IMG/VR virus record: IMGVR_UViG_3300031841_004047
Reading direction: 5' to 3' (one strand)
Origin: a virus
DNA: 64,000 nucleotides
In this document: piece by piece, positions 1 through 13,402 of the stretch
Position numbering within the stretch: the stretch's first letter is position 1
Layout of the letters: every line of letters starts with the position of its first letter
Notes under the pieces: model-generated
Told to the model about the DNA's origin: nothing
What the model saw: only the letters and a program-made list of their open reading frames with translations
The model's database searches: none
Program-made: the position numbers and the translations under genes

Positions 1-849
1 AATCGCATACTTGGTACAGATAAAGACTATGTAATAGCGATTGATACCGATTCAGTCTATATCAATATGGGTCCACTCGTAAAGAAACTGAATCCTTCAG
101 ATCCAGTCAAAGCACTTGATAAGATATGTAAAGAACACTTTGAAAAAATTATTGCTGATGCTTACGGTGAGCTATTCAATAAGATGAATGCCTACACGCC
201 AAGAATGGAAATGGGAAGGGAAGTTATAGCTGATCGTGGTATCTGGATGGCTAAGAAAAGATATATTCTTAACGTACATAACAACGAAGGTGTACAATAC
301 GCTGAACCAAAACTTAAGATCATGGGTATCGAAGCAATTAAGTCTTCTACACCTGAAGTTGTTCGAGATAAGTTCAAAGAAATATTTAAAGTTATTATAA
401 CTGGAAATGAATCGGATACAAGAAAATTTATAAACAATTTTAAACAATACTTTAAATCTCTTCCTCCCGAATCAGTTGCTTTTCCTCGAGGAGTTCAAGA
501 AGTAGATAAATGGTCTGATCGTTTAAAAATCTATATTAAAGGTACACCTATTCATGTTAGAGGTGCTTTGCTATATAATCATACTATAAAAGATAAAGCA
601 CTCGAAAAGAAACATACTCTTATTCAATCTGGAGAAAAAATCAAGTTTTCTTACTTAAAAATGCCAAATCCTCTTCGTGAAAACGTGATATCTTTCCCAG
701 ATTATTTACCAAGTGAGTTGAATCTTCATAAATATATAGACTATGACACTCAGTTTGAAAAAACATTTATCGAACCCTTAAATCCAATCCTTGAAGCGGT
801 GGGTTGGTCAGTCAAAGAACAAGCAACACTAGAGGATTTTTTCGGATGA
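1..849 (+). CDS. gp43: Family B DNA polymerase, C-terminal part (5' truncated by window)
   Basis: Frame open from base 1 (NRILGTDKDYVIAIDTDSVY, palm DTDS motif); KKRY and KIMGIEAIKSSTP motifs; ends TLEDFFG, a clamp-binding-like tail. Confidence 0.97.
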   Translation, partial: NRILGTDKDYVIAIDTDSVYINMGPLVKKLNPSDPVKALDKICKEHFEKIIADAYGELFNKMNAYTPRMEMGREVIADRGIWMAKKRYILNVHNNEGVQYAEPKLKIMGIEAIKSSTPEVVRDKFKEIFKVIITGNESDTRKFINNFKQYFKSLPPESVAFPRGVQEVDKWSDRLKIYIKGTPIHVRGALLYNHTIKDKALEKKHTLIQSGEKIKFSYLKMPNPLRENVISFPDYLPSELNLHKYIDYDTQFEKTFIEPLNPILEAVGWSVKEQATLEDFFG

Positions 850-1589
850 ATAACATGAACTACGTATTCGATGTAGACGGAACACTTACACCAAGTAGGA
901 TGAAGATGGATCCTGTTTTCCAAAAGTTTTTTCTCGAGTTTGCGGATAGGAATAAGTGTTACTTAGTTACTGGTTCAGACTATGAAAAAACAGTTCAACA
1001 AGTTGGAAAAGAAATATGTGAAACAGTCATAACCGTATGGAACTGCTGCGGTAACAGCGTTTGGCAGAGAGGAGTTGAAGTTTACAGAGATTCGTGGAGA
1101 CTTCCTGATCATATGCGTAAATGGTTAGAAAAAAAGATAAAGACAAGTAAATTTAGTCTTAGAACCGGTGGCCACATTGAAGACAGACCTGGGCTGGTAA
1201 ACTTTACTGTCCTAGGAAGAAACTGCACACTTGGTGAAAGAATGCTGTATCGTCAATGGGATGAAGAAAATAACGAAAGAAAAACAATTGCAAGAGAATT
1301 TAATATTGCTTTCAACCACGAAGGTGTTGTAGCTCAAGTAGCAGGTGAAACCGGTCTTGATATAATGATGATAGGTTCTGATAAATCACAAGTAGCCATG
1401 AGCTTATTTGGACCTACGATGTTCTTTGGCGATAAGATGGAAGTGGGTGGTAATGATTACCCTTTAGCTCAGGAACTAAAACAGCGTGATGATAATGTCT
1501 GCATTGCAGTCAAAGACTGGAAAGATACACAAAAATATTTATTTGGATTGTCATATGAGGGTTTACAAGAAAGAGTAAATATTGTATAA
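846..1589 (+). CDS. HAD class IIB hydrolase, phosphomannomutase-like
   Basis: FDVDGTLT motif I, LVTGSD motif II, FFGDKMEVGGNDY motif IV as in eukaryote-type PMM; ATG at 846 overlaps gp43 stop. Confidence 0.72.
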   Translation: MNNMNYVFDVDGTLTPSRMKMDPVFQKFFLEFADRNKCYLVTGSDYEKTVQQVGKEICETVITVWNCCGNSVWQRGVEVYRDSWRLPDHMRKWLEKKIKTSKFSLRTGGHIEDRPGLVNFTVLGRNCTLGERMLYRQWDEENNERKTIAREFNIAFNHEGVVAQVAGETGLDIMMIGSDKSQVAMSLFGPTMFFGDKMEVGGNDYPLAQELKQRDDNVCIAVKDWKDTQKYLFGLSYEGLQERVNIV

Positions 1590-1590
1590 T
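1562..1590 (+). promoter_or_regulatory. sigma70-like promoter
   Basis: TTTACA-17 nt-TATAAT. Confidence 0.75.
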
Positions 1591-1609
1591 ATACAAAATG
1601 GAGAAAAAT

Positions 1610-2020
1610 ATGAGTGATTGGGCTTTTGATATCTACCAAATGCATAATAAGTTTGGTGTAAAAGAATGGTTTGAAAATAACAAACATGATAAAGAACTAA
1701 TGAAAACATACCTACGTTTTCGTTTGAATATGTGTAATGAAGAAATGGGTGAATGCTTTGATGCACTCGACAACGAAGATCCTGAAGAAATCGTAGATGG
1801 TCTTATTGATATCTGTGTATTTGCTATCGGTACTCTTGATGTCTTTGGTGTAGATGCCAATGAAGCATGGAATCGTATCTACGAAGCAAACATGGCAAAG
1901 TCACCTGGTGTGAAAGAAGGTAGACCTAATCCATTTGGTTTACCAGATCTAATCAAACCCGACGGATGGGAATCACCTAACCACGAAGGTAATCATGGAA
2001 GTCTCAGCGACCTTTTTTAA
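1610..2020 (+). CDS. All-alpha NTP pyrophosphohydrolase (MazG/PRA-PH-like), candidate dCTPase/dUTPase
   Basis: EEMGE...EIVDGLID acidic helices, ANMAK and DLIKPDGW motifs; GGAG RBS at 1600. Confidence 0.7.
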   Translation: MSDWAFDIYQMHNKFGVKEWFENNKHDKELMKTYLRFRLNMCNEEMGECFDALDNEDPEEIVDGLIDICVFAIGTLDVFGVDANEAWNRIYEANMAKSPGVKEGRPNPFGLPDLIKPDGWESPNHEGNHGSLSDLF

Positions 2021-2930
2021 AAACATATATGATAACAAAACGCACAAGCGCTTTGACTTTGAAGACTTCAGTAAGTTTGAAGAGTTCTTGTACAAGTTAT
2101 CGAGAAGAAGGCTGAAGGGTAAGAAAGACGCCGCGCTTATGTCACCCGCAACTTATGTCGAGGGTACTACACGTGCTAATAAGAACGTAGTCAGTTGGGC
2201 TGGCTGGGCAGCCATTGATGTTGATGATCACGAGTTTAAAGGAGATCTGAAAAATGAATTGGCTTCCACTCATGGTAAATGGCATTATGTTTGCTATTCT
2301 ACTGCTAGCTCTAGAGAAAGTTTACCAAAGTTTAGGCTATGTTTCCCACTTAGAACAAGAGTTGAACCAGACAAGATCAGACATTTCTGGTTCGCCCTTA
2401 ACAAAGAGTTCGGATCGCTCGGCGATGAACAAGCTAAAGATCTATCACGAATGTATTATATCCCTGGCACGTACGATGACGCTTTCAACTTTATTTTTAC
2501 TAATACTGGCGATTTTCTAGATCCTCAGACAATTATGGATAAACACTCGTATGTTGAAAAGAAAACCGGAAGCTTTCTTGACAGATTGCCCACTGAGATA
2601 CAAAAACAAATCGTAGAACATCGCAAGAAAAAAATGGACAATACTAGTATATCTTGGACTAGTTATGAAGACTGTCCTTTTGTAAATAAAAACATGATCC
2701 GTGATTTTAAAAACATCGCTCATGTCGATAATAGTGGTAGATACGCAATGATCTATAAGATTATGGTATCCATCGCAAGTAACGCAGTTGATAGGCGTTA
2801 TCCAATAAGCGTATATGAAATCGTAGAGTTAGTCAGACAGCTAGATGCTGACACGGCTCGTAGATATGAAAACAGACCATTGAATGTAGAAGCAGATAGG
2901 GCTATAGAGTATGCATACCGAAACGTTTGA
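1995..2930 (+). CDS. AEP (archaeo-eukaryotic primase) superfamily primase-like protein
   Basis: AAIDVDD (DxD), YSTASS...KFRLCFPL and KDLSRMYY motifs, helical PriCT-like C-terminus. Confidence 0.62.
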   Translation: MEVSATFFKNIYDNKTHKRFDFEDFSKFEEFLYKLSRRRLKGKKDAALMSPATYVEGTTRANKNVVSWAGWAAIDVDDHEFKGDLKNELASTHGKWHYVCYSTASSRESLPKFRLCFPLRTRVEPDKIRHFWFALNKEFGSLGDEQAKDLSRMYYIPGTYDDAFNFIFTNTGDFLDPQTIMDKHSYVEKKTGSFLDRLPTEIQKQIVEHRKKKMDNTSISWTSYEDCPFVNKNMIRDFKNIAHVDNSGRYAMIYKIMVSIASNAVDRRYPISVYEIVELVRQLDADTARRYENRPLNVEADRAIEYAYRNV

Positions 2931-3392: not shown

Positions 3393-3425
3393 ATTTTTGC
3401 ATGAAACTTAAAGGACAAAAATAAA

Positions 3426-3995
3426 ATGGCTTACGAGGAAATAAATGGAATACAAATTATAGGCCGTTCCCCTTGGATACCTATTTCAAAAATACCAACA
3501 AAAGATACGGCTGATTTTTTAGATTTAAATGAAAAATATGGTACGTGTGGAATATACCAAGTTGCCGAAACAAAATATATAGAAGAAATAGGTAATGAAG
3601 TAATACACGATAAAATAGGCTATACTGGTAAATCAGGTAGCATTCTTCAAAGAACTTACGATATACGTCAACCAAAAGGTACTCACGGCGCTGGACGTTA
3701 TATCCGTCAAAACGATCTTTGCAAAGAAGCTGAAGTTAAAATACGCTATATTTACACATCTTCGGAAGATTATAAAAGTCTTGAAGACTATATTCATCAT
3801 GAAACAACACGTAATTATGGTTTTCGATTTGCTTGGAAAGACGCGTCACAAGGTAATGTTGGGGTATATTCACAATGGCTTGAATTATCTAAACGATTAA
3901 CAGCTGATGAAATATTATCAGGAATTCCAAATTTAAAAGAATTGGCTATAGAAAAAAACATAGAAGAATTTCAAGAAAGGTTGAATGAAGTATGA
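3426..3995 (+). CDS. GIY-YIG nuclease-like protein
   Basis: GIYQVA...IGYTGKS..ILQR and a downstream conserved Glu (SLEDYIH). Confidence 0.55.
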   Translation: MAYEEINGIQIIGRSPWIPISKIPTKDTADFLDLNEKYGTCGIYQVAETKYIEEIGNEVIHDKIGYTGKSGSILQRTYDIRQPKGTHGAGRYIRQNDLCKEAEVKIRYIYTSSEDYKSLEDYIHHETTRNYGFRFAWKDASQGNVGVYSQWLELSKRLTADEILSGIPNLKELAIEKNIEEFQERLNEV

Positions 3996-4354
3996 AAGAT
4001 AAGTACTCACTAAAGTTTCTTCAGCGTTGTGCTGAGATACAAATTAAAAAGGGTAATGATTACCAAAACCCAAACTCACGTGTAAGACAAGCACACTACT
4101 ATCCACGTGGTTGTGCTACTATTCTTGACACTATGGCAGCAAAAGTCTTACGTATGCAATCAGTTCTTGAAGCTATGGAACTTGATCCAAACTATCAGCC
4201 AAACTTTGAGTCACTTGAAGACTCGTGTGTTGATATTGCAAACTACGCTTCGTTCTTTGCTGCTTATATGAATGGTGCAATTGATGGCCAACATCCTGAC
4301 TATGATTTTCTAAATCGTCCAAAAAATAAAGTAGAACATATTAGTGAAGAATAA
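3992..4354 (+). CDS. Nucleotide modification-associated domain protein (Nmad1/DUF1599-like)
   Basis: KKGNDY...KVLR...EDSCVDIANY pattern. Confidence 0.55.
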   Translation: MKDKYSLKFLQRCAEIQIKKGNDYQNPNSRVRQAHYYPRGCATILDTMAAKVLRMQSVLEAMELDPNYQPNFESLEDSCVDIANYASFFAAYMNGAIDGQHPDYDFLNRPKNKVEHISEE

Positions 4355-4521
4355 TGTGGGTTCTGTTTGTCATAAATCCAGTCTTTGATATTGATACGCC
4401 AGCATTAAGATGGACACAATACTCAGAGTTTGAAACTCATGAAAGCTGTCTTGTAACTAAAGTCTTGATAGAGGAGCAGTTCAATATGAATGAACTGGCT
4501 ATTTGTGTTAAAGATGAATGA
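4354..4521 (+). CDS. Small hypothetical protein (55 aa, MWVLFVINP...)
   Basis: Read manually; fills the gap between neighbours with TAATG coupling to the previous stop. Confidence 0.6.
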   Translation: MWVLFVINPVFDIDTPALRWTQYSEFETHESCLVTKVLIEEQFNMNELAICVKDE

Positions 4522-4750
4522 GTTTAGAATTGGTATATTTAATCTTTTAAGAAAGATTATAGGCGGAAGCAGTGTACTTCTAGCAGTCATATATACACTA
4601 GGTCATATAATCATTGCCATGACTTGTAACTACTTAATAACCGGAGCTAGATTAGATCTTGCTGCGGTTGATGCGCTTATAGAACCTATCATTAATGGTT
4701 TCTGGTTCTATGCTTTACATAAGATTTGGAAAGGGTTTCAGAATGAGTGA
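4514..4750 (+). CDS. DUF2061-like small membrane protein
   Basis: YTLGHIIIA...TGA...AAVDALIEPIINGFWFYAL hydrophobic pattern. Confidence 0.65.
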   Translation: MNEFRIGIFNLLRKIIGGSSVLLAVIYTLGHIIIAMTCNYLITGARLDLAAVDALIEPIINGFWFYALHKIWKGFQNE

Positions 4751-5072
4751 TTATGCAGTATTAACAGCTGTTCTACAGTTTAGAACAAGATATGTCATTC
4801 CTACGAGTGACATCAAAGACTGTGATCCAGAAACTTTTATTAAAGATTCCGTGACTTGCAATGAAGTTGAAGAGTTTAGTCAATTATGTTTAAATGAAAA
4901 CATTGTTGATACACAGTTAATGTCAGAAGAAGAAGTATTAAAACTATTTGACAGAGATAATGATTATCTGGCTGGTTGGTCAAAAGAAAAGAAAATTGAA
5001 TGGATTGGAGATTGGGCAGGCCGTTGGTCAGCAGAAAATTTCAAAGATAAGGACGATGGAAATGTATCATAA
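4743..5072 (+). CDS. Hypothetical protein
   Basis: ORF coupled to both neighbours. Confidence 0.7.
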   Translation: MSDYAVLTAVLQFRTRYVIPTSDIKDCDPETFIKDSVTCNEVEEFSQLCLNENIVDTQLMSEEEVLKLFDRDNDYLAGWSKEKKIEWIGDWAGRWSAENFKDKDDGNVS

Positions 5073-5391
5073 CTGGAATCTACACAATGGGTATCTTGCA
5101 CATACTCTTGAAAACTATCTTATGCATGGATACGAGCCAGGCGGATTTACTACAGCAGTTATTGCTGGTGATTTGTTTGGTGCTGTTGCTAGAGCAGATC
5201 ACTGCAACCGTCCTGCTATTGCAGAGATCGCAGAAGCAGTACTAAACACTTGTCCTGCACATGCAGTTGGCAGTTACGAAGCTGTACGAGCATGGTGTAC
5301 AGATCTAGATGAACGCCGTAGCAAGTATGTGACTTGGAAACTACTTCAAGGACCTGTCAAACAAGAAATCGACGAAGAAGTACCATTTTGA
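5056..5391 (+). CDS. Hypothetical protein
   Basis: ORF; ATG at 5056 preceded by GGA. Confidence 0.7.
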   Translation: MEMYHNWNLHNGYLAHTLENYLMHGYEPGGFTTAVIAGDLFGAVARADHCNRPAIAEIAEAVLNTCPAHAVGSYEAVRAWCTDLDERRSKYVTWKLLQGPVKQEIDEEVPF

Positions 5392-5403
5392 AAGGATTAA
5401 ACA

Positions 5404-5658
5404 ATGCGCTATAAAACTATAACTGTAGATGTAAATGTAGATGCAGATGTTTATATAGGTGATATCATCGACAGTTTGGACGATGAAGATCTGATCGACG
5501 AACTCAACAGACGTGGCTACATTGTAAACAAAGATACACACCCTGGCGGATTTGACCGAGAAGATTTGCAATTTCTACTTGAAATCATAGATCAAATACC
5601 TGAAACAATATATACTCGTAGAGTAAGAGATAAACTAATGAGGGCTCGTTTTGGCTAA
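5404..5658 (+). CDS. Hypothetical protein
   Basis: ORF with AGGA RBS. Confidence 0.7.
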   Translation: MRYKTITVDVNVDADVYIGDIIDSLDDEDLIDELNRRGYIVNKDTHPGGFDREDLQFLLEIIDQIPETIYTRRVRDKLMRARFG

Positions 5659-5839
5659 GGTAACAATGGTAGATCCACCCAGTGGTTGGAAGTATGGCTT
5701 TCCTAAACCGTTGCCTGCAGATTATCCAGAGGGCGAAAGCATCTTTCCGTGGCTATTAAGTGAAGGCTATCCTCAGAAAGAGATAGACAACTGCGGCAAA
5801 CACTTTTATTGTAGGTATTGGGAAGAGGAAACAGAATGA
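5651..5839 (+). CDS. Hypothetical protein
   Basis: TTG start; VDPPSGWKYGFPK segment typical of small phage proteins. Confidence 0.6.
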   Translation: MAKVTMVDPPSGWKYGFPKPLPADYPEGESIFPWLLSEGYPQKEIDNCGKHFYCRYWEEETE

Positions 5840-5863
5840 AAGAACTATGGATGGTGAAAAATA

Positions 5864-6346
5864 ATGAGTAAAGCAGGTAAAGTATGGGGTACAACTGAAT
5901 TAATTGAAGCCAATGGTGCTTTAGAGTTTCATCGTATTCAAATGAATAAAGGGGGCGTTTGTTCTAAACATCTTCATGAGTTCAAATGGAATGGGTTCTA
6001 TGTCGAAAGGGGCGTAATGTTGGTTCGTGTCTGGCAGAAAGATTATAATCTAGTGGATGAGACTATTCTATATGAAGGAGATTATACGAAAGTAAAACCG
6101 GGTCTTTATCATCAGTTTGAATGTCTAGAGTCTGGCGTTGCTTACGAACTCTATTGGGCCGAGTTTGCTCATAAAGATATTGTAAGAGAAACTGTTGGAT
6201 ATAAAGAAGAAGGCATGATCCATGATAGCTCTTATTCTTTAAATATTCCAGATATTACCTTTACAATTGATGGAGAAGATGTTAAAATAAACACAGAAAC
6301 TTACACTCTATATGATAAACTAGACGTAGAAAAAATCGGTTGTTAA
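5864..6346 (+). CDS. Cupin-fold protein (sugar isomerase-like)
   Basis: KVWG N-terminus, SKHLHEFK metal motif 1, PGLYHQF motif 2. Confidence 0.75.
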   Translation: MSKAGKVWGTTELIEANGALEFHRIQMNKGGVCSKHLHEFKWNGFYVERGVMLVRVWQKDYNLVDETILYEGDYTKVKPGLYHQFECLESGVAYELYWAEFAHKDIVRETVGYKEEGMIHDSSYSLNIPDITFTIDGEDVKINTETYTLYDKLDVEKIGC

Positions 6347-6445
6347 TTCAAGACTTAATAACAGTAAGTCCGGTGATTGTAATTATCTCCATAATTATTA
6401 TATGGCCAAGTGCGGTAGAAGAATGGAGAAAGAGAAAGAATAAAA

Positions 6446-7291
6446 ATGAGTAGATCTTTAAAGATTACTATTATAGGTCATGGGTTTGTCGGGAAAGCCA
6501 TTGATTATGCTTTTCAGTATAACGTTCAAAAACAAATCATAGATCCTAAAATAGGAGTAAACTTGAGTGACGTAACATTAAACTCCGATGTTACGTTCGT
6601 ATGCGTGCCGACTCCTATGCACGAAAATGGAAAGTGTGACATATCAATAATAAGTGAAGTCATAAAACAAATAAAGCAAAGAAGATCTGGTTTGATAGTT
6701 ATTAAGTCTACCGTTCCACCTGATCAAATAGAAAATCTTTTTAGAGGTACAGCTATATCAAGAATGGTTTACAACCCAGAGTTTCTTACAGAAAGAAATG
6801 CAAATGAAGATATACTAAATCCTTCGATGCATATTTTCGGAGGAGATAATAATGCTACCGAAAGACTAGAAAAAATATATAATGAGTACAGTATATGTAA
6901 ACCATGTCAAGTATTTCATGTTTCTGCTACTGACGCAAGTTTTATAAAATACGGAATAAATACTTTTCTTGCAACTAAACTAATATGGTTCAATGAACTA
7001 TATGACACAGTAAATAATTTTGGAGGCAACTTTGGAAAAATTGCAAACGCTATTGGGGCCGATCCAAGAATCGGACATTCCCATACTCGTGTTCCTGGGT
7101 TTGACAATCGTCGTGGTTTTGGTGGTGCATGTTTTCCCAAAGATGTAAGCGCTTTTGTCAACTTTACGGATCATATGCCTATCTTAGAATATGTTATGAA
7201 TAAAAACAACAATTATAGATTGTCTTATGAAAAAAATGATAGAGAAGTCGAACAAAACGTGAACTATGAGAATAAGAAAGAGAGTATATAA
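6446..7291 (+). CDS. UDP-glucose/GDP-mannose dehydrogenase family protein lacking the C-terminal domain
   Basis: IIGHGFVG Rossmann motif, CVPTP, KSTVPP, YNPEFL, catalytic Lys (IKYGINTFLATK), GFGGACFPKD catalytic Cys; only 281 aa. Confidence 0.85.
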   Translation: MSRSLKITIIGHGFVGKAIDYAFQYNVQKQIIDPKIGVNLSDVTLNSDVTFVCVPTPMHENGKCDISIISEVIKQIKQRRSGLIVIKSTVPPDQIENLFRGTAISRMVYNPEFLTERNANEDILNPSMHIFGGDNNATERLEKIYNEYSICKPCQVFHVSATDASFIKYGINTFLATKLIWFNELYDTVNNFGGNFGKIANAIGADPRIGHSHTRVPGFDNRRGFGGACFPKDVSAFVNFTDHMPILEYVMNKNNNYRLSYEKNDREVEQNVNYENKKESI

Positions 7292-7980
7292 TGATAATCC
7301 CTAGTGTAAAAGATATTCGTGAGTTCTTTGTCGGTGAACTTAAAGACGAAGCTTATACTATAGATAAGACCGGAGCTAAGACTATAGAAATGATTGGTGC
7401 TTCGTTCATAGCCGATGAGTCTTCTATATTTGGTACACCTAATACCGACTACATATCTCAAGAAATGTTGTGGTATACAAGCATGTCGACAAATATTAAA
7501 GACATATACGGAGAACACAGAGACCCGCCTTCTGCATGGCAGTATGCCGCGAACCAATTTGGTGAGATTAACTCTAACTACGGTTTGTTAATATATTCCG
7601 AAAAGTATTACAGCCAGTTTGAAAGAGTGTGTGACGAGTTGTTTGAAAACCCTGATGGTCGAAGAGCAACTATGATTTATAACAGACCATCGATATGGGT
7701 GGAGTATAATGAAAATGGAAAATCAGATTTTATTTGTACTAACGCTGTCACTTACTATATTCGTGATAATCTACTGCATGCTGTAGTTCAAATGCGTTCC
7801 AATGATGTTGTGTATGGTTATAAGAATGACTGGGCATGGCAAAACCGAGTGATGCACGACATAGTTCATGATCTTAATTTCTCAAATGGAAATGAAGATT
7901 TGGAAGTAGGTAAGATGGTTTGGCAGGTTCAGAACTTGCATGTATATGAACGTCACTTTGATCTAGTAAAAAATATTTAA
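7291..7980 (+). CDS. gp42: dCMP hydroxymethylase-type enzyme (thymidylate synthase fold)
   Basis: Collinear with T4 gp42: DKTGAKTIE, GEINSNYG, DFICTN (Cys149), MRSND, YKND (Asp180, equivalent to the dCMP-specific T4 Asp179), LHVYERHF. Confidence 0.92.
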   Translation: MIIPSVKDIREFFVGELKDEAYTIDKTGAKTIEMIGASFIADESSIFGTPNTDYISQEMLWYTSMSTNIKDIYGEHRDPPSAWQYAANQFGEINSNYGLLIYSEKYYSQFERVCDELFENPDGRRATMIYNRPSIWVEYNENGKSDFICTNAVTYYIRDNLLHAVVQMRSNDVVYGYKNDWAWQNRVMHDIVHDLNFSNGNEDLEVGKMVWQVQNLHVYERHFDLVKNI

Positions 7981-7990: not shown

Positions 7991-8224
7991 ATGAGCAATT
8001 TGATATTGATCACCGATATCCTTGAAACAAAAGTAAGAAAAGAAAAAGAACTACAGTACTATCAGAAAGAATTAGAAAAACTTCAGAAAAAAATGTTCTT
8101 TGTTAAAAAGGATATTGAACTAACAAACCTGATCATTAATATGATTGAGAAAGAAAATATAATAGACTTTAAAGAGCAAGTCTTAATACGACAGGAAAAA
8201 AATGATACCACCTCAGATAATTAA
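7991..8224 (+). CDS. Small coiled-coil hypothetical protein
   Basis: ORF with AGGA RBS, charged heptad pattern. Confidence 0.65.
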   Translation: MSNLILITDILETKVRKEKELQYYQKELEKLQKKMFFVKKDIELTNLIINMIEKENIIDFKEQVLIRQEKNDTTSDN

Positions 8225-8684
8225 GATTTTTGAAAAAGATATGGCTAAAGGTCTTCACTGGACCACTGTGATCACCGAAAGAGCAATGCTAGCAGTAATA
8301 GGTGCTTTAACTGTAATCGCAGCTAGTTTTAATGTGTACTCAATGATAGTATCAATGAAGATAGAATTAGCGGATTTGTTTCTTTTATTCATCTATACAG
8401 AAATAGTCGGCATGGTTGGTGCTTACTACATAAGTAATAGGATACCAGTTACTCTTCCTATCATTATAGCTATGACTGCTTTATGTAGGCTTATTATTCT
8501 TCATTCTAAAGATGCTAACCCATGGGTACTAGTAGCAGAAGCTGGAGCGATCGTCGTTCTAGCCGGAGCCGCGTATCTCATGAGTGCTAAGGAAAAACTA
8601 AGCCTGGAAAAGAAAGAAAAGCGAAAAAAAGAATATGATGCGGGGTTCAAAAAGACAGAAAAAAAAGATTTAGACGATGAATAG
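8202..8684 (+). CDS. psiE: PsiE family membrane protein
   Basis: LADLFLLFIYTEIVGMVGAYY...RIPVTLPIIIAMTALCRLII, four hydrophobic segments. Confidence 0.8.
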   Translation: MIPPQIIKIFEKDMAKGLHWTTVITERAMLAVIGALTVIAASFNVYSMIVSMKIELADLFLLFIYTEIVGMVGAYYISNRIPVTLPIIIAMTALCRLIILHSKDANPWVLVAEAGAIVVLAGAAYLMSAKEKLSLEKKEKRKKEYDAGFKKTEKKDLDDE

Positions 8685-9126
8685 TAGGTATACTAAATGG
8701 GATAGAAGATATCTGGATCTGGCATATACGGTTAGTAAATGGTCAAGAGATCCATCAACACAAATCGGCGCGGTCGCGATTGGATCCAAGGGTCAAGTTT
8801 TATCTCAAGGTTATAACGGCTTTCCTAGAGGAATAAAAGATACTCTAGATCGATATCATCATAGAGAAACTAAATATAAGCTTATTGTTCATGCTGAACA
8901 AAATTTAATATACAATGCTACATACAATGGTGTCTCATTGGATGGATCTACACTGTATGTAACGGGACTTCCGGTTTGTTCCGAATGTGCTAAAGGTGTT
9001 ATACAAGTCGGTATCAAAAGAGTTGTTATGCCACATATAGATGATATGAAATCTTGGAAAGAATCTTGGGAGTTGTCTGCTTCTATGTTCAGAGAAGCCG
9101 GAATATTATGGGATTTCATAATATAA
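8677..9126 (+). CDS. cd: dCMP deaminase
   Basis: SRDPSTQIGA, GYNG, HAEQN and PVCSECAK zinc motifs. Confidence 0.92.
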   Translation: MNSRYTKWDRRYLDLAYTVSKWSRDPSTQIGAVAIGSKGQVLSQGYNGFPRGIKDTLDRYHHRETKYKLIVHAEQNLIYNATYNGVSLDGSTLYVTGLPVCSECAKGVIQVGIKRVVMPHIDDMKSWKESWELSASMFREAGILWDFII

Positions 9127-9207: not shown

Positions 9208-9702
9208 ATGAAAATAAAAAGCTTAATAGTCATGGGTCTTAATCCTTCTAAGAGTCCATCACGAAAAGGTTCTACTATCCCAAAGCTACACTCTTGGATG
9301 TATGACAGCCTAGAAGTAGACTCATTCTTTATGTCTAATGTTTCTCATGATCCAGACTGGGATTTTAAATATAGATCTATAGATAAAAATCATGTCATTG
9401 AAACTTTAAGAGATCATGATATCATAATAGCTTTAGGTAGCACGGTGTATAACTACTTAAAGAGGATGGGGTTTAAGAATATGTTTAAGCTTCCTCATCC
9501 ATCACCTAGGAATCGTCAGTTAAATGACAAATCTTTCGAAATAAAAATTTTAAATGAATGTAAAGAGTATTTGACTCAGGAAGGCTTCTATGAAAATAGC
9601 AATAGGCAAAGTGGGAAAATCAATAAAGTTTGGTCCGGAGTCGTTAAGCACCGGAAAAAAATCAATGACGGCGGGCTCGATAGATGCACGTGTAATCTTT
9701 GA
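9208..9702 (+). CDS. Uracil-DNA glycosylase superfamily protein
   Basis: MGLNPS (motif A-like), SNV, IIALG, LPHPSPRN (motif B); reading frame overlaps the next gene by 113 nt. Confidence 0.7.
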   Translation: MKIKSLIVMGLNPSKSPSRKGSTIPKLHSWMYDSLEVDSFFMSNVSHDPDWDFKYRSIDKNHVIETLRDHDIIIALGSTVYNYLKRMGFKNMFKLPHPSPRNRQLNDKSFEIKILNECKEYLTQEGFYENSNRQSGKINKVWSGVVKHRKKINDGGLDRCTCNL

Positions 9703-10828
9703 ACTTTTAATTAGGTTTAATCCACAACACACGTTTTATATAGTTGGTAGATCAAACTATTCTCGTCTTAAACCTGAGATAAGAGATAAGATCAACGTTC
9801 ATAACAACGTTGTTGATCTGTGGAGTGGTTTTAACGAGTGGTTTGATAATCAAGACGATAAAGATGAAATGACGGAGTCATGGAGGTACATGGATCACGT
9901 CATTGAATCCGGACATACATTTGACACGGGTATATTTATTGCAGGAGGAGTACTTGAGTACGCGGTTCAAGGAAAAACTCTAAAGAACGGCGAACCTATT
10001 AAAACTTTAAACGCAGCGACTAAGTATGCAGCTCCTATTCATCACTTCATAAATATTACGAAGCTACCATACGTGATGCTGGTCACTGATCCAAGATGCT
10101 ACCCGAAACCAACAAAAGATCTTATGGTACCACCTCGTAGAATATTGTCTCAGTACGATGAAGTTGTAGACGTCGAACATCGTGTAACTTATGAGGATGA
10201 CGATATGGTCATCGATAAAGTTAAATCCGTATACTCCGGTATAGAATCTCTATACGTAGTCGAAGAACAGTGGAACGAAAAAGAAACAAGTCTTGAAGAC
10301 TTCTTTGGTGATCCAGACCCAGCCCCTGAACGTGACATCAACATGGTACTATTCCTAAACGAAGGTAACCCTTCAAGATATGAAGACTTAAAGAAATATA
10401 TCTTAAATGACATAGAAGATGTTAACGTCTATGGAGTATGGAACGATAAAGCTTTACAAGATCCACGAATAGAGCAGATAGCGATGGCTGAGCTTACTCA
10501 TCTTTTCCCTAGGATTAGATACACGTTTTGTATACCAATCGCTCCCGGTTGGGCGACCGGAAAGTTTTGGGAGATGACTAAGTACGGAATCATTCCGTTT
10601 ATGCATCCGAGTTATGATGAAGGTAAAAACATTGGTTTTCCAGAGGAGCTAAGAGTTAAAGATTCAAAAGATTTGTTAGAAAAAATAAGTATGTACAACT
10701 CTGATAAATTATGTTATAATAATATACATGAAAGGCTTCAGAATATGGTCACTCCGGATCATAAATCTGGCAAGTTTATAAATGATATGGTTATGAAAAA
10801 TGTTATGGAGATAGTCAATGAAGATTGA
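9590..10828 (+). CDS. DNA glycosyltransferase, T4 beta-glucosyltransferase-like (GT-B)
   Basis: Ordered matches to T4 BGT: MKIAI, LVTDPR (FTDIR), ILSQ (VISQ), GIESLY (PIEQY), TGKFWE (TLRVWE), VKDSKDLLEKI (VNNRAELIDRV). Confidence 0.72.
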   Translation: MKIAIGKVGKSIKFGPESLSTGKKSMTAGSIDARVIFELLIRFNPQHTFYIVGRSNYSRLKPEIRDKINVHNNVVDLWSGFNEWFDNQDDKDEMTESWRYMDHVIESGHTFDTGIFIAGGVLEYAVQGKTLKNGEPIKTLNAATKYAAPIHHFINITKLPYVMLVTDPRCYPKPTKDLMVPPRRILSQYDEVVDVEHRVTYEDDDMVIDKVKSVYSGIESLYVVEEQWNEKETSLEDFFGDPDPAPERDINMVLFLNEGNPSRYEDLKKYILNDIEDVNVYGVWNDKALQDPRIEQIAMAELTHLFPRIRYTFCIPIAPGWATGKFWEMTKYGIIPFMHPSYDEGKNIGFPEELRVKDSKDLLEKISMYNSDKLCYNNIHERLQNMVTPDHKSGKFINDMVMKNVMEIVNED

Positions 10829-11150
10829 AAAAAGACATATTTCTGAGTTTACTGGTGGATGGTTTATTGGAAACTTTGAGCCATCGGTTCTTAAAAGCGA
10901 TGATTTCGAAGTATCAATTAAGCTGCATCCTAAGGGAGAAGTTTGGCCAAAGCATTATCACAAAGTGGCTACCGAGTATAACTATGTGATAGACGGCATA
11001 GTAGAAATAGATGGCATAAAATATGAAAAAGATGACATCTTCATTATTCATCCAAACTTTGTCGTAGATCCCAATTTTCTTGAAGACTGCAGAATAGTAT
11101 GTGTAAAAACACCATGCGTACCTGGAGATAAGTATGAGGTTGAAAGATAA
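10818..11150 (+). CDS. Small cupin protein
   Basis: GWFIGNFEPS, HYHKVATE cupin motif, KTP...DKY end; type seen in polysaccharide loci. Confidence 0.75.
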   Translation: MKIEKRHISEFTGGWFIGNFEPSVLKSDDFEVSIKLHPKGEVWPKHYHKVATEYNYVIDGIVEIDGIKYEKDDIFIIHPNFVVDPNFLEDCRIVCVKTPCVPGDKYEVER

Positions 11151-12215
11151 ATGAGAGTAATTATTCCAATGGCCGGACTGGGGTCAAGATTTACAAACAA
11201 GGGATATAAGACACACAAACCGTTAATCGAAGTTAACGGTAAAACTCTTATTAGATACGCAGTTGAGTCATTAAACATAAGTGCTCATTACGTATTCGTA
11301 TGTAGGGACTTAGGAGGTTCATACCTTGAAAACTTAGAATCAGAAATAAAAGACATTACTTACGGTCGATACGAAATAAAAGTAATAGATCATATGACGT
11401 CTGGAGCAGCAGAAACCGCTCTTTTAGGTTGTGATAGCGAGTATGACGGAGAATTAATTGTCACCAACTGTGATCAGTATTTAGACTGGGACTCTGAAGC
11501 TTTCCTTAAAGAATCAAGAAAATATGATGGTTCTGTACTAACTTACGACTCGACTGATCCTAAAAATTCTTTCGTAGAGTTCGCGAACAAAAAAGTAGTA
11601 AGAATGGTCGAGAAACAAGCTATATCAAACAATGCTTTAGTAGGAGTACACTACTGGAAAAAAGCATCGGATTTCATTAACTCTACTAAATCTTCTCTAG
11701 CTAACTTTACCTCAAAAGAATCTTATGTGTCTGAAACATATAACTACTTAATAGCTGATGGTAAAAAAATTGGAGCAATATCAATTATGGATGGTACTTA
11801 TTGGTCCACCGGAACTCCTGAAGATCTGGCATATTTCAAAGGGATGATATCCGAATATTATACCTCTAAAAATAATACATATTTTATTGATCTTGATGGT
11901 ACAATCTTTATGCATGCACATAGGTACTCCAACTTAAAAAATGATGTTCAGTTGTGTCCAGGTGTTCTTGAAACTTTAGATGAACTTGATTCGAGAGGTG
12001 ATACGATCATACTTGTTTCGGCAAGAAAAGAGTCTGCGAGATCAATGACTGAGAAATTACTTGATGATTTCATGATTCCTTATGATCAGCTTATACTTGG
12101 TGTATCTCAAGGATGTAGGATAGTCATAAACGATATTATCACGAAGTCATCTTTTCCAAGAGCAAGAGCCGTGAATGTAATCACGGACAAAGGATGGAAA
12201 GCAAACGATTTATGA
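11151..12215 (+). CDS. Sugar nucleotidyltransferase fused to a C-terminal HAD phosphatase-like domain
   Basis: IIPMAGLGSRF...KPLI, VTNCDQ, GTPEDL; C-terminal FIDLDGT. Confidence 0.82.
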   Translation: MRVIIPMAGLGSRFTNKGYKTHKPLIEVNGKTLIRYAVESLNISAHYVFVCRDLGGSYLENLESEIKDITYGRYEIKVIDHMTSGAAETALLGCDSEYDGELIVTNCDQYLDWDSEAFLKESRKYDGSVLTYDSTDPKNSFVEFANKKVVRMVEKQAISNNALVGVHYWKKASDFINSTKSSLANFTSKESYVSETYNYLIADGKKIGAISIMDGTYWSTGTPEDLAYFKGMISEYYTSKNNTYFIDLDGTIFMHAHRYSNLKNDVQLCPGVLETLDELDSRGDTIILVSARKESARSMTEKLLDDFMIPYDQLILGVSQGCRIVINDIITKSSFPRARAVNVITDKGWKANDL

Positions 12216-13402
12216 ATTATGCGAGTATAGTACCTTTAATCGGAGGAGAGACATTCGGTATGCAAGAAGTGTTTGGTCAAAAGCCAGACTACATCTTATC
12301 ATACTCGGATTTTGAAGCAAATGATAGACAACTTCTTAACTATTATAATAATAGTGTTCCTTATTATAAGCTTGATCAAGGTGGTTCTGCCCCTCACAGA
12401 GTGGATGTTATCAATACTGTATGCCCTTGTGCGGGTCTTTCTTCACTTAGTCCTACTAGCAGCGCTAGTAACACTACTAATGATTGGATGGTCAAGTCTG
12501 CCCAGTATATTCTAGAAGAAGTACAACCGACTGTCTTTTGGGGAGAAAATGCTCCTAGACTAGCCAGCAAGATGGGTGAGCCTATAGTAAATAAGCTAAG
12601 GAAGATCGGGAAAGATAATGGTTACACCATGACTCTTTATAAAACAAAATCTTTACTTCATGGCTTATCTCAAGTAAGAGACAGATGCTTTTACTTCTTT
12701 TGGAAAGGCAACCATGTTCCAGTTTTTGCATACTACAACAACTTATTAAGGGAGAGTATCGAAGATACTATAAGGTCATCATCTAGTAATCAAATAGACG
12801 AAATGTATGATATGCAGGCCAAGACTTCTAAGCCTTCAGATGATCCATACTATAAATATGTTTTAGAAGAGATTGAAGATGGTATAACACATCAAGATTT
12901 TTTTAAAAAAATTAAAAAAACTACCAATCCATTGGATTATATCGAGCAAAAAGGTATTAAATATAATACTGTAGCTAAGTGGATGAAGATGAAGGGATAT
13001 GACAAGTATGAAGTCAAATGTCAAAGAATGCATGAAAAGCTTGAGTCTGGTGGAAACATAATGAGAAAGGCTACTACAATCGCAAAGGATTATATCGGCG
13101 CTTTTGTAGGTAACATGGCAACTGACATTACACACCCTGATGTTGATAGGTACATAAACGTAAGAGAAGCTCTTGATATAATGAAGATGCCTAAAGATTT
13201 TCAGCTTCAAGGAGGAACAAAAAACATTAATATGATATGTCAAAACGTTCCGGTTACTACTGCTAGAGATATGGCTTTTAATGTATCAGCATACCTAGGA
13301 GGACATTTAACTACTCATAAATCTGATTTTGCTGTTCAGGATAATAAAACAACTAAGTTTTGGAGAGAGCCTGAACCCTCAACTCTTGAAGAGTTTTTGT
13401 AG
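12212..13402 (+). CDS. C5-cytosine methyltransferase-fold protein with atypical motif I
   Basis: CPCAGLS (IV), GENAP (VI), QVRDR (VIII), HP...REA...PKDF (IX), QNVP (X); motif I reads IVPLIGG instead of FxGxGG. Confidence 0.78.
   Translation: MNYASIVPLIGGETFGMQEVFGQKPDYILSYSDFEANDRQLLNYYNNSVPYYKLDQGGSAPHRVDVINTVCPCAGLSSLSPTSSASNTTNDWMVKSAQYILEEVQPTVFWGENAPRLASKMGEPIVNKLRKIGKDNGYTMTLYKTKSLLHGLSQVRDRCFYFFWKGNHVPVFAYYNNLLRESIEDTIRSSSSNQIDEMYDMQAKTSKPSDDPYYKYVLEEIEDGITHQDFFKKIKKTTNPLDYIEQKGIKYNTVAKWMKMKGYDKYEVKCQRMHEKLESGGNIMRKATTIAKDYIGAFVGNMATDITHPDVDRYINVREALDIMKMPKDFQLQGGTKNINMICQNVPVTTARDMAFNVSAYLGGHLTTHKSDFAVQDNKTTKFWREPEPSTLEEFL

What the first reader, a model, noticed from the sequence alone, without database searches (positions are those of the whole stretch)
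846..13402. Candidate new cytosine-hypermodification pathway around a gp42-type dCMP hydroxymethylase
Seen: a gp42 homologue with catalytic Cys149 and the dCMP-specifying Asp180, in one co-directional block with a T4 BGT-like glycosyltransferase, NDP-sugar dehydrogenase, two cupins, nucleotidyltransferase-HAD, PMM-like HAD, UDG-fold protein, C5-MTase-fold protein, Nmad1-like protein, dCMP deaminase and an NTP pyrophosphatase. Known: T4 makes hm-dCMP with gp42, removes dCTP with a dCTPase and glucosylates hmC using host UDP-glucose; RB69-like phages use arabinose. Inference: cytosines carry a sugar made by the phage itself, possibly with a second step. I do not recognise this gene set as either the T4 glucose or the RB69/arabinose pathway.
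Basis: partly seen in the sequence, partly recalled or inferred. Interest (0 to 1): 0.9.

Follow-up and report, generated by a model that had tools for sequence, protein, structure and literature searches.

The report
Marine phage hydroxymethylcytosine sugar-modification module
An uncultured marine T4-like phage carries an enlarged version of T4's gene pair for hydroxymethylcytosine and its glycosylation. It adds its own sugar-activating genes and a conserved methyltransferase-like partner, which points to an uncharacterised cytosine modification that is common in ocean viruses.

Summary
The gene set is real. ORF 7291-7980 is a true T4 gp42-type dCMP hydroxymethylase (PDB 1b49, E 4e-71; Cys149 and Asp180 invariant in 62/62 relatives). 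ORF 9590-10828 folds like T4 beta-glucosyltransferase and sits where T4 has beta-gt, between gene 42 and uvsX.

Across 80 IMG/VR loci, a MazG-type NTP pyrophosphatase, gp42, the GT and a C5-methyltransferase-fold protein are present together or all absent. Of 34 loci spanning pol to uvsX, 31 have all four and 3 have none. In 76/82 loci a nucleotidyltransferase plus a HAD phosphatase of one of three types lies next to the GT; one type is homologous to the RB69 sugar-activation genes. This supports hmC glycosylated with a phage-made NDP-sugar.

- The PMM-like mutase, the cupin at 5864 and the truncated NDP-sugar dehydrogenase form a separate module. Sister phages have it without gp42 or the GT.
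- The 311-aa ORF is the gp61-type primase.
- No dNMP kinase was found in the window.

The methyltransferase-fold partner keeps motifs IV, VI and VIII. It lacks FxGxG and has Gln at the cofactor-contact Asn position, so its reaction is unknown. No chemistry is shown.

Verdict: a new variant of a known kind. Other first-stage notes of this scan flagged the same stretch.

The parts
67..849 (+). C-terminal part of the gp43-type DNA polymerase (the ORF runs off the window start). It ends in ATLEDFFG and forms the left boundary of the module.
   Evidence: 64-73% identical to the polymerase C-termini of relatives, including annotated phage C48C1. The tail (S/T)LE(D/E)FF is conserved in more than 40 loci.
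846..1589 (+). Eukaryotic-type phosphomannomutase-like HAD-IIB enzyme. It belongs to the separate sugar module.
   Evidence: Pfam PMM 1.5e-20. PDB phosphomannomutases E 3e-24, with DVDGT aligned. It occurs next to the cupin and the dehydrogenase in gp42-less contigs L090-L092.
1598..2020 (+). MazG/PRA-PH-type NTP pyrophosphatase, the candidate dCTPase.
   Evidence: Pfam PRA-PH 1.5e-8 and PDB MazG-like DR2231. It is present in 31/31 pol-to-uvsX loci that have gp42 and in 0/3 that lack it.
1995..2930 (+). gp61-type DNA primase. This is a replication gene, not part of the modification pathway.
   Evidence: phrog_9765 'DNA primase' 2.7e-55. Its homologue is annotated as DNA primase in C48C1. It is also present in gp42-less relatives.
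3992..4354 (+). Small conserved protein found next to gp42 in relatives, possibly Nmad1/DUF1599-like.
   Evidence: Found in 53 related loci and in 30 of the 31 pol-to-uvsX loci that have gp42; absent from the three that lack it. phrog_1485 and phrog_18404 hits. Atlas lead to DUF1599. No Pfam hit.
4490..4750 (+). DUF2061 membrane protein that travels with the separate sugar module.
   Evidence: Pfam DUF2061 1.1e-6. 95% identical to a gene directly upstream of cupin-PMM-dehydrogenase in L090.
5864..6346 (+). Cupin, part of the separate sugar module; possible sugar or sugar-phosphate isomerase or epimerase.
   Evidence: Cupin_2 1.7e-5, below the Pfam cutoff. WbuC cupin 5e-4. phrog_7851. 76-86% identical in L089-L092.
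6446..7291 (+). UDP-glucose/GDP-mannose dehydrogenase-family protein without the C-terminal nucleotide-sugar-binding domain.
   Evidence: GHGFVG and GGACFPKD motifs present. 39-53% identical homologues in C48C1, L087, L088 and L090.
7291..7980 (+). gp42-type dCMP hydroxymethylase.
   Evidence: PDB 1b49 E 4e-71; Cys149, Asp180 and Asp146 aligned. Cys149 and Asp180 are invariant in 62/62 homologues.
8202..8684 (+). PsiE-family membrane protein, specific to this window and probably unrelated to the pathway.
   Evidence: Pfam PsiE 7e-18. No homologue in the 80 loci.
8677..9126 (+). dCMP deaminase.
   Evidence: Pfam dCMP_cyt_deam_1 5e-19. Present in 45 loci.
9208..9702 (+). UDG-superfamily-like protein with GLNPS and HPSPRN motifs. 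Its 3' end overlaps the GT start.
   Evidence: Pfam UDG 25.4 bits against a cutoff of 24.3. Sequence read. Found in 19 loci. No PDB sequence hit.
9590..10828 (+). BGT-like GT-B DNA glycosyltransferase, the positional counterpart of T4 beta-gt. It carries an internal SLEDFFGD peptide in a disordered loop.
   Evidence: Model pLDDT 87, with T4 BGT as the top Foldseek hits. hhalign to T4 bgt E 7e-4 aligns KxxWE with RxxWE. T4 gene order. gp42 accompanies it in 49/50 loci that have enough upstream sequence.
10818..11150 (+). Small cupin-like protein of the GT-linked cassette.
   Evidence: phrog_24762 8.5e-33. Atlas Cupin_2 lead. Found directly after the GT in the 10 closest loci.
11151..12215 (+). 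Sugar-1-phosphate nucleotidyltransferase fused to a HAD-IIIA phosphatase. This is the predicted maker of the NDP-sugar donor.
   Evidence: rmlA_long 3e-15 and HAD-IIIA hits. PDB 4evw 9e-13. FIDLDGT motif. Lies between the GT and the MTase-fold gene in the closest clade.
12194..13402 (+). C5-cytosine methyltransferase-fold protein with a divergent cofactor region. It is the near-universal partner of the GT and ends in STLEEFL.
   Evidence: Pfam DNA_methylase 4.5e-16. Family alignment. PDB profile hits cover only motifs IV-VIII and IX-X. Model pLDDT 90.5; top fold hits are CmoX 8yf3, HhaI and HaeIII. It accompanies the GT in 64/65 loci with enough downstream sequence.
13461..14510 (+). UvsX recombinase, the right boundary of the module.
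   Evidence: Pfam T4_UVSX_C and RecA; tblastn.
16968..17849 (+). ThyX flavin-dependent thymidylate synthase. It supplies dTMP, so the gp42 homologue is not needed as a thymidylate synthase.
   Evidence: Pfam Thy1 5e-44.
22522..24305 (+). Second sugar-activation pair: a 144-aa protein (phrog_34507) plus a beta-phosphoglucomutase-like HAD fused to a nucleotidyltransferase. It heads an LPS-like glycan cluster that runs to about 30.5 kb.
   Evidence: The 144-aa protein is 40% identical to the cassette gene that relatives carry between the cupin-like gene and the NTase-HAD gene.

Best explanation
The block is the T4 '42 / beta-gt' DNA-modification module, at its ancestral place between the polymerase and uvsX, in an enlarged marine form.

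Proposed mechanism:
1. The MazG-type pyrophosphatase turns dCTP into dCMP (inferred).
2. The gp42 homologue hydroxymethylates dCMP. Residues and homology are shown; activity is inferred.
3. A kinase, not found in this window, and the phage polymerase put hmC into DNA (inferred).
4. dCMP deaminase and ThyX supply dTTP.
5. After replication, the BGT-like glycosyltransferase transfers a sugar onto hmC. The donor is made by the adjacent cassette: the nucleotidyltransferase-HAD fusion with a small cupin-like protein. This rests on fold, synteny and co-variation, not on chemistry.
6. A C5-methyltransferase-fold enzyme almost always accompanies the GT and also acts on the DNA. Its cofactor and reaction are unknown.
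7. The UDG-like protein may remove deaminated bases.

The GT and the MTase-fold protein carry the polymerase's C-terminal peptide, so both probably ride on the sliding clamp.

The PMM-like mutase, cupin 5864 and the truncated dehydrogenase are a separate, mobile sugar module. In this one phage it sits beside the hmC module. It may or may not feed the GT.
For: - gp42 identity and residues.
- GT fold equals T4 BGT. Weak profile match over the UDP-binding (R/K)xxWE stretch.
- Same gene order as T4 (43-imm-42-bgt-uvsX) and RB69.
- IMG/VR scan: 321 related loci, 80 kept.
- All-or-none co-variation of MazG, gp42, GT and MTase-fold genes in pol-to-uvsX loci: 31 with all four, 3 with none. gp42 is present in 49/50 GT loci with at least 6 kb upstream; the MTase-fold gene in 64/65 with at least 4 kb downstream.
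- A nucleotidyltransferase plus a HAD phosphatase lies within about 2.5 kb of the GT in 76/82 loci, in three unrelated architectures. Type A is homologous to RB69p051/052/053. It is also present in the cultured Pseudoalteromonas phage XG4 and in Enterococcus phage Planchet.
- The other variable site, between primase and gp42, holds miscellaneous non-sugar genes.
- ThyX.
- Clamp-type peptide on the polymerase, GT and MTase-fold protein.
Against: - No chemical data exist for any member.
- No hm-dCMP (dNMP) kinase was found among the window ORFs scanned, and the whole genome is not held.
- The NTase domain family also occurs in T4-like cyanophages inside LPS-like clusters that lack gp42. Pelagimyophage sugar genes have been read as O-chain genes (PMC7029224).
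- The window has its own LPS-like cluster, which holds a paralogous HAD-NTase.
- The window cassette lacks the 148-aa gene present in its closest relatives.
- The sugar identity is unknown.
- The dCTPase role of the MazG-type protein rests on co-variation only.
Confidence: 0.68

Rival explanations
1. T4-like plain pathway. The GT uses a host nucleotide sugar such as UDP-glucose. All phage sugar genes, including the cassette next to the GT, are auxiliary genes that remodel host surface glycans or LPS, as proposed for pelagimyophages.
For: - Homologous NTase genes sit in LPS-like clusters of cyanophages without gp42.
- The window has such a cluster, with two GT25 genes and FkbM-type methyltransferases.
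- PMM, cupin and dehydrogenase occur without gp42 or the GT in sister phages.
- Literature reading of pelagimyophage sugar genes as O-chain genes: PMC7029224.
Against: - 76/82 GT loci have an NTase plus a HAD phosphatase adjacent to the GT, in three non-homologous architectures and on either side of it. The neighbouring variable site carries no sugar genes.
- The type A pair is homologous to the RB69 genes assigned to making the DNA-sugar donor (PMC13326640).
- The same trio appears in an Enterococcus phage DNA-modification cluster.
Confidence: 0.2
2. The MTase-fold protein is an ordinary SAM-dependent C5-methyltransferase. It would methylate residual unmodified cytosines or a specific motif, and would not be a step of the hypermodification pathway.
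For: - Motifs IV (PC), VI (ENA), VIII (QxRxR) and IX are intact, and the fold matches HhaI and HaeIII.
- A homologue stands alone, without the GT, in cyanophage S-TIM5.
Against: - If hmC replaces C, C5 is already occupied.
- Motif I is (V/I)PLIGG instead of FxGxGG, and no acidic motif II residue is conserved.
- The Asn that contacts the transferred group (HhaI N304, CmoX R350) is an invariant Gln.
- The N-terminal 67 residues match no solved MTase by sequence.
- It accompanies the GT in 64/65 loci.
Confidence: 0.3
3. The whole set, including PMM, cupin 5864 and the dehydrogenase, is one dedicated pathway to a uronic acid or a derived sugar on hmC.
For: - All genes lie between the polymerase and uvsX on one strand.
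- PMM, an NTase, a cupin and a GDP-mannose/UDP-glucose dehydrogenase-family enzyme together resemble a hexose-1-P to NDP-hexose to NDP-uronate route. This is inference from family knowledge.
Against: - The three genes form their own contiguous module in phages without gp42 or the GT.
- They are absent from all 31 loci that span pol to uvsX and carry the hmC module.
- The dehydrogenase lacks the nucleotide-sugar-binding domain.
Confidence: 0.25
4. The TS homologue makes 5-hydroxy-dCMP (RB69 type) or hydroxymethyl-dUMP, so the base is not hmC.
For: The TS fold is shared by all of these enzymes. RB69-type enzymes also have Asp at the N177 position (PMC13326640).
Against: The E-value is 4e-71 to T4 gp42, against 1.6e-10 to the next solved TS homologues and 1.7e-5 to MilA. 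Identity to Tevenvirinae gp42 is 52% and only 29% to RB69p048 over 126 residues. Asp180 is invariant.
Confidence: 0.04

Closest known systems
T4 glucosyl-hmC system (gp56 dCTPase, gp42, gp1 kinase, alpha- and beta-glucosyltransferases)
   Same: A gp42 orthologue with the same catalytic residues. A GT with the BGT fold at the same genomic position, between gene 42 and uvsX. An all-alpha NTP pyrophosphatase and a dCMP deaminase are also present.
   Different: T4 uses host UDP-glucose and has no sugar-activation genes. It has no C5-MTase-fold partner, no UDG-like gene and no Nmad1-like gene. Here the GT shares no significant sequence identity with BGT (about 11% in the structural alignment), and no gp1 kinase was found in the window.
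RB69 / DLP3 arabinosyl-5-hydroxycytosine system (PMC13326640)
   Same: Same genomic slot between gp43 and uvsX. Phage-encoded donor synthesis by a HAD phosphatase plus a nucleotidyltransferase (and a kinase). The type A cassette of the marine relatives is homologous to RB69p051/052/053.
   Different: The RB69 base is 5-hydroxyC, made by a flavin-dependent MilA-like TS homologue. Its transferases are GT4-like. It has a SIS-type arabinose-5-P isomerase and no MTase-fold gene. The window has a gp42-type enzyme, a BGT-like GT, an NTase-HAD fusion without a kinase, and cupins instead of a SIS isomerase.
CmoX / CmoA / CmoY 5-carboxymethylcytosine system of Synechococcus phage S-B43 (PMC12783734; PDB 8yf3)
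   Same: CmoX is the best sequence and fold match of the MTase-fold protein. It sets a precedent for a phage C5-MTase homologue that uses a cofactor other than SAM and creates a handle for further modification.
   Different: The family here lacks the SPPC motif and the Arg350 that binds the carboxyl group; it has an invariant Gln instead. No CmoA or amide ligase was recognised in the window. CmoX acts on unmodified C, whereas here C5 should already carry a hydroxymethyl group.
Phage MT / 5mYOX (TET) / GT hypermodification clusters (bioRxiv 10.1101/2023.12.21.572611)
   Same: A C5-MTase-family gene and a DNA glycosyltransferase sit in one cluster and produce glycosylated 5hmC.
   Different: There 5hmC is made after replication by a methylase plus a TET-like oxygenase. 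Here it is made before replication by gp42, and no dioxygenase is present.

Membership tests
T4 gp42 dCMP hydroxymethylase (thymidylate synthase superfamily) | Full-length homology to solved gp42, closer than to thymidylate synthases or MilA | tested here: met
   1b49 E 4e-71 over residues 6-227. The next TS homologues score 1.6e-10 and MilA 1.7e-5.
T4 gp42 dCMP hydroxymethylase (thymidylate synthase superfamily) | Catalytic Cys (T4 C148) and Asp at the ThyA N177 position (T4 D179), which specifies dCMP | tested here: met
   Cys149 and Asp180 are aligned and invariant in 62/62 family members.
T4 gp42 dCMP hydroxymethylase (thymidylate synthase superfamily) | Acidic residue at the ThyA L143 position, which admits water | tested here: met
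   SDFIC aligns with T4 SDFMC, so Asp146 lies three residues before the Cys. The criterion is taken from PMC13326640.
T4 gp42 dCMP hydroxymethylase (thymidylate synthase superfamily) | Produces 5-hydroxymethyl-dCMP | not testable with these tools
   Needs an enzyme assay or in vivo LC-MS.
T4 beta-glucosyltransferase-like DNA glycosyltransferases (GT-B) | Two-Rossmann GT-B fold that is closest to BGT | tested here: met
   Foldseek ranks 1-6 are all T4 BGT entries, E 2.9e-9 to 4.8e-7, TM-score normalised to the target 0.58-0.66.
T4 beta-glucosyltransferase-like DNA glycosyltransferases (GT-B) | Sequence-level family membership | tested here: inconclusive
   No Pfam or PDB sequence hit. hhalign gives probability 26% and E 7e-4 over 112 columns, aligning K325xxWE with the T4 RxxWE stretch.
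T4 beta-glucosyltransferase-like DNA glycosyltransferases (GT-B) | Genomic association with gene 42 and position between 42 and uvsX | tested here: met
   T4 gene order, window order. gp42 is present in 49/50 GT loci with enough upstream sequence.
T4 beta-glucosyltransferase-like DNA glycosyltransferases (GT-B) | Transfers a sugar to 5hmC in duplex DNA | not testable with these tools
   Needs an in vitro assay on hmC-DNA.
DNA cytosine-C5 methyltransferases | Catalytic motifs IV (PC), VI (ENV) and VIII (QxRxR) | tested here: met
   P78-C79, E118-N119-A120 and Q160/R162/R164 are invariant in 23 sequences. They align with HaeIII and CmoX.
DNA cytosine-C5 methyltransferases | SAM-binding motif I, FxGxG(G) | tested here: not met
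   The family has (V/I)PLIGG with invariant P14, L15, G17 and G18 and no Phe. Residues 1-67 match no solved MTase by sequence.
DNA cytosine-C5 methyltransferases | Motif X GN(A/S)V, with the Asn next to the transferred methyl group | tested here: not met
   The family has an invariant C-Q-N-V-P. The Gln aligns with the HaeIII motif X Asn and with CmoX R350.
DNA cytosine-C5 methyltransferases | Overall fold | tested here: met
   Model pLDDT 90.5. HhaI and HaeIII score E about 1e-13, TM-score normalised to the target 0.67-0.70.
CmoX DNA cytosine C5-carboxymethyltransferase | SPPC motif, Arg350 and a CmoA partner | tested here: not met
   The family has VCPC or TPPC and Gln at the Arg350 position. 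No CmoA-like hit was seen among the window ORFs scanned. The criteria are from PMC12783734.
RB69/DLP3 arabinosyl-5hoC pathway | MilA-like flavin-dependent 5hodCMP synthase | tested here: not met
   The window enzyme is gp42-type. It is only 29% identical to RB69p048 over 126 residues.
RB69/DLP3 arabinosyl-5hoC pathway | HAD phosphatase plus NTase-kinase donor module | tested here: inconclusive
   Relatives with the type A cassette have homologues of RB69p051/052/053. The window has an NTase-HAD fusion, no kinase and no BLAST match to the RB69 genes.
RB69/DLP3 arabinosyl-5hoC pathway | SIS-type arabinose-5-phosphate isomerase | tested here: not met
   No SIS domain was found in any window ORF scanned.
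UDP-glucose/GDP-mannose dehydrogenases | NAD-binding domain, central domain and catalytic Cys | tested here: met
   GHGFVG and GGACFPKD motifs present.
UDP-glucose/GDP-mannose dehydrogenases | C-terminal nucleotide-sugar-binding domain | tested here: not met
   The protein has 281 aa and ends at about profile position 295 of 413. The next gene starts at its stop codon.
Uracil-DNA glycosylase superfamily | Family profile match above the curated cutoff | tested here: inconclusive
   25.4 bits against a cutoff of 24.3. No solved relative by sequence. The GLNPS and HPSPRN motifs resemble family 2/3 motifs; that comparison is from my own knowledge.

The most novel reading that the evidence does not exclude
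The C5-methyltransferase-fold protein accompanies the BGT-like glycosyltransferase in 64/65 loci with enough downstream sequence. It may not be a methylase. It could be a new DNA-modifying enzyme that uses covalent C6 activation on hmC or glycosyl-hmC, or a cofactor other than SAM, to add a second group. An abundant lineage of marine T4-like phages would then carry a doubly modified cytosine of a kind not yet described, with clade-specific sugars set by swappable NDP-sugar cassettes.
Probability: 0.2. Interest if true: 0.9.

Novelty: new variant of a known kind. Interest (0 to 1): 0.7.

Why it matters
Cytosine hypermodification in T4-like phages is known chemically from only a few hosts: T-even glucosyl-hmC and RB69/DLP3/Thanatos pentosyl-5hoC. 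This module differs in four ways:
- It is found in hundreds of marine viral contigs.
- It combines a T4-type base (hmC) with RB69-type self-supply of the sugar donor.
- It shows cassette-like exchange of the donor pathway between clades.
- It adds a conserved C5-MTase-fold enzyme whose cofactor site is altered.

It gives concrete test objects: a cultured phage (Pseudoalteromonas phage XG4) and a small set of enzymes. These could reveal new DNA glycans and possibly new C5 chemistry. That is relevant to restriction and CRISPR evasion, to sequencing bias in marine viromes, and to enzymatic DNA-labelling tools.

Tried and rejected
- Near-identical DNA search in the phage collection found nothing.
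- A single-protein scan of IMG/VR with the GT found nothing. The alignment-based scan was needed.
- No whole genome is held for this window. A dNMP kinase, alpha-GT-like genes or CmoA elsewhere in the genome could not be looked for.
- phmmer of the GT, the MTase-fold protein and the UDG-like protein against PDB gave nothing useful.
- I considered the 311-aa ORF as a modification enzyme and rejected it; it is the primase.
- I considered the MazG tail SLSDLF as a clamp peptide and rejected it; it is not conserved in relatives.
- I considered a GDP-mannose/mannuronate route (PMI-like cupin, PMM, NTase, AlgD-like dehydrogenase) as the donor pathway. It fits the families, but these genes travel without gp42 or the GT in sister phages, and the dehydrogenase lacks its nucleotide-sugar domain.
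- Literature searches found no description of this marine module.
- No complex prediction was run.

Full report
**What is there.** The window comes from a T4-like phage of low G+C (about 36%). It has no near DNA relative among deposited phages. From the polymerase C-terminus (67-849) to uvsX (13461-14510), every credible ORF is on the + strand.
- a eukaryotic-type phosphomannomutase-like HAD, 846-1589;
- a MazG/PRA-PH pyrophosphatase, 1598-2020;
- a cupin, 5864-6346, below the Pfam cutoff;
- a UDP-glucose/GDP-mannose dehydrogenase-family protein, 6446-7291;
- a gp42 homologue, 7291-7980;
- a dCMP deaminase, 8677-9126;
- a marginal UDG-superfamily protein, 9208-9702;
- a 412-aa protein with no family hit, 9590-10828;
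- a small phrog_24762 protein, 10818-11150;
- a nucleotidyltransferase-HAD fusion, 11151-12215;
- a C5-methyltransferase-fold protein, 12194-13402.

The 311-aa ORF at 1995-2930 is the gp61-type primase.

**The hydroxymethylase.** ORF 7291-7980 matches solved T4 dCMP hydroxymethylase at E 4e-71. The next TS homologues score 1.6e-10 and MilA scores 1.7e-5. The alignment shows the catalytic Cys at 149, the dCMP-specifying Asp at 180, and an Asp three residues before the Cys, where thymidylate synthases have Leu. Cys149 and Asp180 are invariant in 62 homologues from related contigs. RB69-type 5-hydroxy-dCMP synthases are MilA-like and flavin-dependent (PMC13326640). RB69p048 is only 29% identical over 126 residues. 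A ThyX gene at 16968-17849 covers dTMP synthesis. The enzyme is therefore best read as a genuine dCMP hydroxymethylase.

**The glycosyltransferase.**
- The 412-aa protein has more than 130 homologous protein clusters, almost all from marine metagenomes.
- Its N-terminus is conserved, so the start at 9590 is real, as is the overlap with the UDG-like ORF.
- An AF2 model from a 24-sequence alignment (pLDDT 87) has T4 beta-glucosyltransferase as its six best Foldseek hits.
- A profile-sequence comparison with T4 bgt is weak (E 7e-4, probability 26%). It aligns the invariant KxxWE with the T4 RxxWE stretch.
- In T4 the gene order is 43-imm-42-bgt-segA-uvsX-40-41. In RB69 the arabinosylation genes fill the same slot. 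The window GT is thus the positional as well as the structural counterpart of beta-gt.

**Comparative genomics.** An alignment-based scan of IMG/VR found 321 loci that encode a relative of the GT, and 80 were kept. The conserved order is gp43, MazG, primase, a 120-aa protein, gp42, dCMP deaminase, (UDG-like), GT, [variable cassette], MTase-fold, uvsX, gp41.
- Of 34 loci that span the polymerase to uvsX, 31 carry MazG, gp42, the GT and the MTase-fold gene together. Three carry none of them.
- gp42 is present in 49 of 50 GT loci with at least 6 kb upstream.
- The MTase-fold gene is present in 64 of 65 GT loci with at least 4 kb downstream.

This all-or-none pattern is the main support for assigning the MazG-type enzyme as the dCTPase analogue. 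It also supports treating the MTase-fold protein as part of the system.

**The donor pathway.** Genes next to the GT differ by clade, but they are always sugar-activation genes.
- Type A is a roughly 500-aa nucleotidyltransferase-kinase fusion plus an EcbF/BcbF-type HAD phosphatase. It lies downstream or upstream of the GT.
- Type B is an RfaE-domain-II/TagD-like nucleotidyltransferase plus a 368-aa HAD fusion and an unknown 305-aa protein. One clade adds a GDP-mannose 4,6-dehydratase and another adds a GT4.
- Type C, found in the window and its 10-11 closest relatives, is a cupin-like protein, a 148-aa protein and the NTase-HAD fusion.

In total, 76 of 82 loci have such genes within about 2.5 kb of the GT. 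Four of the six exceptions have less than 2 kb of sequence upstream of the GT; L061 has neither such genes nor gp42 in its full flanks. Type A is homologous to RB69p051/052/053, which are assigned to NDP-arabinose synthesis in RB69. Type A also flanks the GT in the cultured Pseudoalteromonas phage XG4, and in Enterococcus phage Planchet, where the GT sits in a hydroxymethylase-kinase-GT cluster. By contrast, the variable site between primase and gp42 holds unrelated genes: an HD domain protein, a FAD halogenase-like protein, a GMP reductase, a cell-wall hydrolase and a DenV-like protein. I therefore infer that the GT uses a phage-made, clade-specific NDP-sugar. For the window, neither the sugar nor the nucleotide can be named.

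**What does not belong.** The PMM-like mutase, cupin 5864 and the dehydrogenase have no homologue in any of the 80 GT loci. Targeted scans found them together, contiguous with a 95%-identical DUF2061 gene. They lie between primase and uvsX in contigs that lack MazG, gp42, the GT and the MTase-fold gene (L090-L092, L088). The UvsX of L090 is at least as close to the window's as that of the GT-bearing relatives (85% against 76-80%).

Phage C48C1, the closest complete deposited relative, has an epimerase and a homologous short dehydrogenase there and nothing of the hmC module. The dehydrogenase keeps GxGxxG and the catalytic Cys but lacks the C-terminal nucleotide-sugar-binding domain. The window also has an LPS-like cluster at 22.5-30.5 kb. 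It holds a paralogous HAD-NTase, two GT25 genes and methyltransferases. That cluster also holds the window's only homologue of the 148-aa cassette gene. So the window is a mosaic. It is the only one of 35 comparable stretches that has both modules, and the link between them is an open question.

**The methyltransferase-fold partner.** The family alignment shows invariant PC (motif IV), ENA-P (VI), QxRxR (VIII), R..M..P (IX) and Q-N-V-P (X).
- Motif I is (V/I)PLIGG rather than FxGxGG, and no acidic motif II residue is conserved.
- A profile search of PDB matches C5-methyltransferases only over motifs IV-VIII and IX-X.
- In those alignments, the invariant Gln sits where HaeIII has the motif X Asn and where CmoX has Arg350. 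Arg350 is the residue that binds the carboxymethyl group of Cx-SAM (PMC12783734).
- The AF2 model (pLDDT 90.5) is closest to CmoX 8yf3, then to HhaI and HaeIII.
- The family does not meet the CmoX criteria, which are SPPC and Arg350.
- A homologue stands alone in cyanophage S-TIM5.

If hmC fully replaces C, ordinary C5 methylation has no substrate. The reaction is unknown, and a non-methyl or hmC-directed reaction is possible but unproven.

**Other points.**
- The 120-aa protein at 3992-4354 follows the hmC module: it is in 30 of the 31 pol-to-uvsX loci that have gp42 and in none of the three without. It has an atlas lead to DUF1599/Nmad1.
- The UDG-like protein has GLNPS and HPSPRN motifs. 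From my own knowledge these resemble MUG/SMUG-type motifs, which would suit removal of deaminated hmC. This is a lead only.
- No dNMP kinase was seen among the window ORFs scanned, and the rest of the genome is not held.

**Verdict.** The system is a new variant of the T4/RB69 kind. It is widespread in marine viromes and has an unexplained conserved C5-MTase-fold component. No paper found in the library describes it. Other first-stage notes of this scan cover the same stretch.

Noticed in passing
window 826-849 (pol C-terminus ATLEDFFG), 10283-10306 (GT internal TSLEDFFG), 13379-13399 (MTase-fold C-terminus STLEEFL): The polymerase's C-terminal peptide (S/T)LE(D/E)FF is conserved in more than 40 related loci. 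It recurs in the GT, either in a disordered internal loop (pLDDT below 50) or, in distant homologues, at the very C-terminus. It also recurs at the C-terminus of the MTase-fold family. This suggests that both DNA-modifying enzymes bind the sliding clamp. The similar tail of the MazG-type protein is not conserved.
   Followed up: partly
window 22522-30497: A low-GC (about 0.32) LPS-like glycan cluster. It contains a phrog_34507 protein, a beta-phosphoglucomutase-like HAD fused to a nucleotidyltransferase, class I and FkbM methyltransferases, two GT25 glycosyltransferases and several unknown ORFs of about 220 aa. It resembles the cluster in cyanophage S-CAM9 (L086).
   Followed up: partly
window 4490-7291 versus L090:7438-10007: The DUF2061 gene (95% aa identity) and cupin 5864 (86%) are far more similar to those of a gp42-less sister contig than the flanking core genes are. 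This suggests recent exchange of the sugar module between phages with and without hmC.
   Followed up: partly
L085 (phage C48C1), L088, L090: Close relatives (UvsX 77-85% identical) lack the whole MazG-gp42-GT-MTase module within the stretch from polymerase to uvsX. If it is also absent from the rest of their genomes, hmC substitution would be gained or lost among closely related phages.
   Followed up: partly
window 16968-17849 and 34978-36129: A ThyX thymidylate synthase and an IMPDH/GMP-reductase-family gene. A GMP-reductase-like gene also sits in the primase-to-gp42 variable site of relative L004.
   Followed up: no
window 9590-9702: The UDG-like ORF and the GT overlap by 113 nt in different frames. 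Comparable overlaps (47-125 nt) occur in relatives L004 and L008.
   Followed up: partly
window 39661-40152: A 163-aa ORF matches the middle of a phrog_799 'DNA methyltransferase' (2.9e-27). It could be a fragment or a small domain protein.
   Followed up: no
L039:5715-6971: A FAD-dependent tryptophan-halogenase-like gene sits between primase and gp42 in one clade of hmC-module phages.
   Followed up: no
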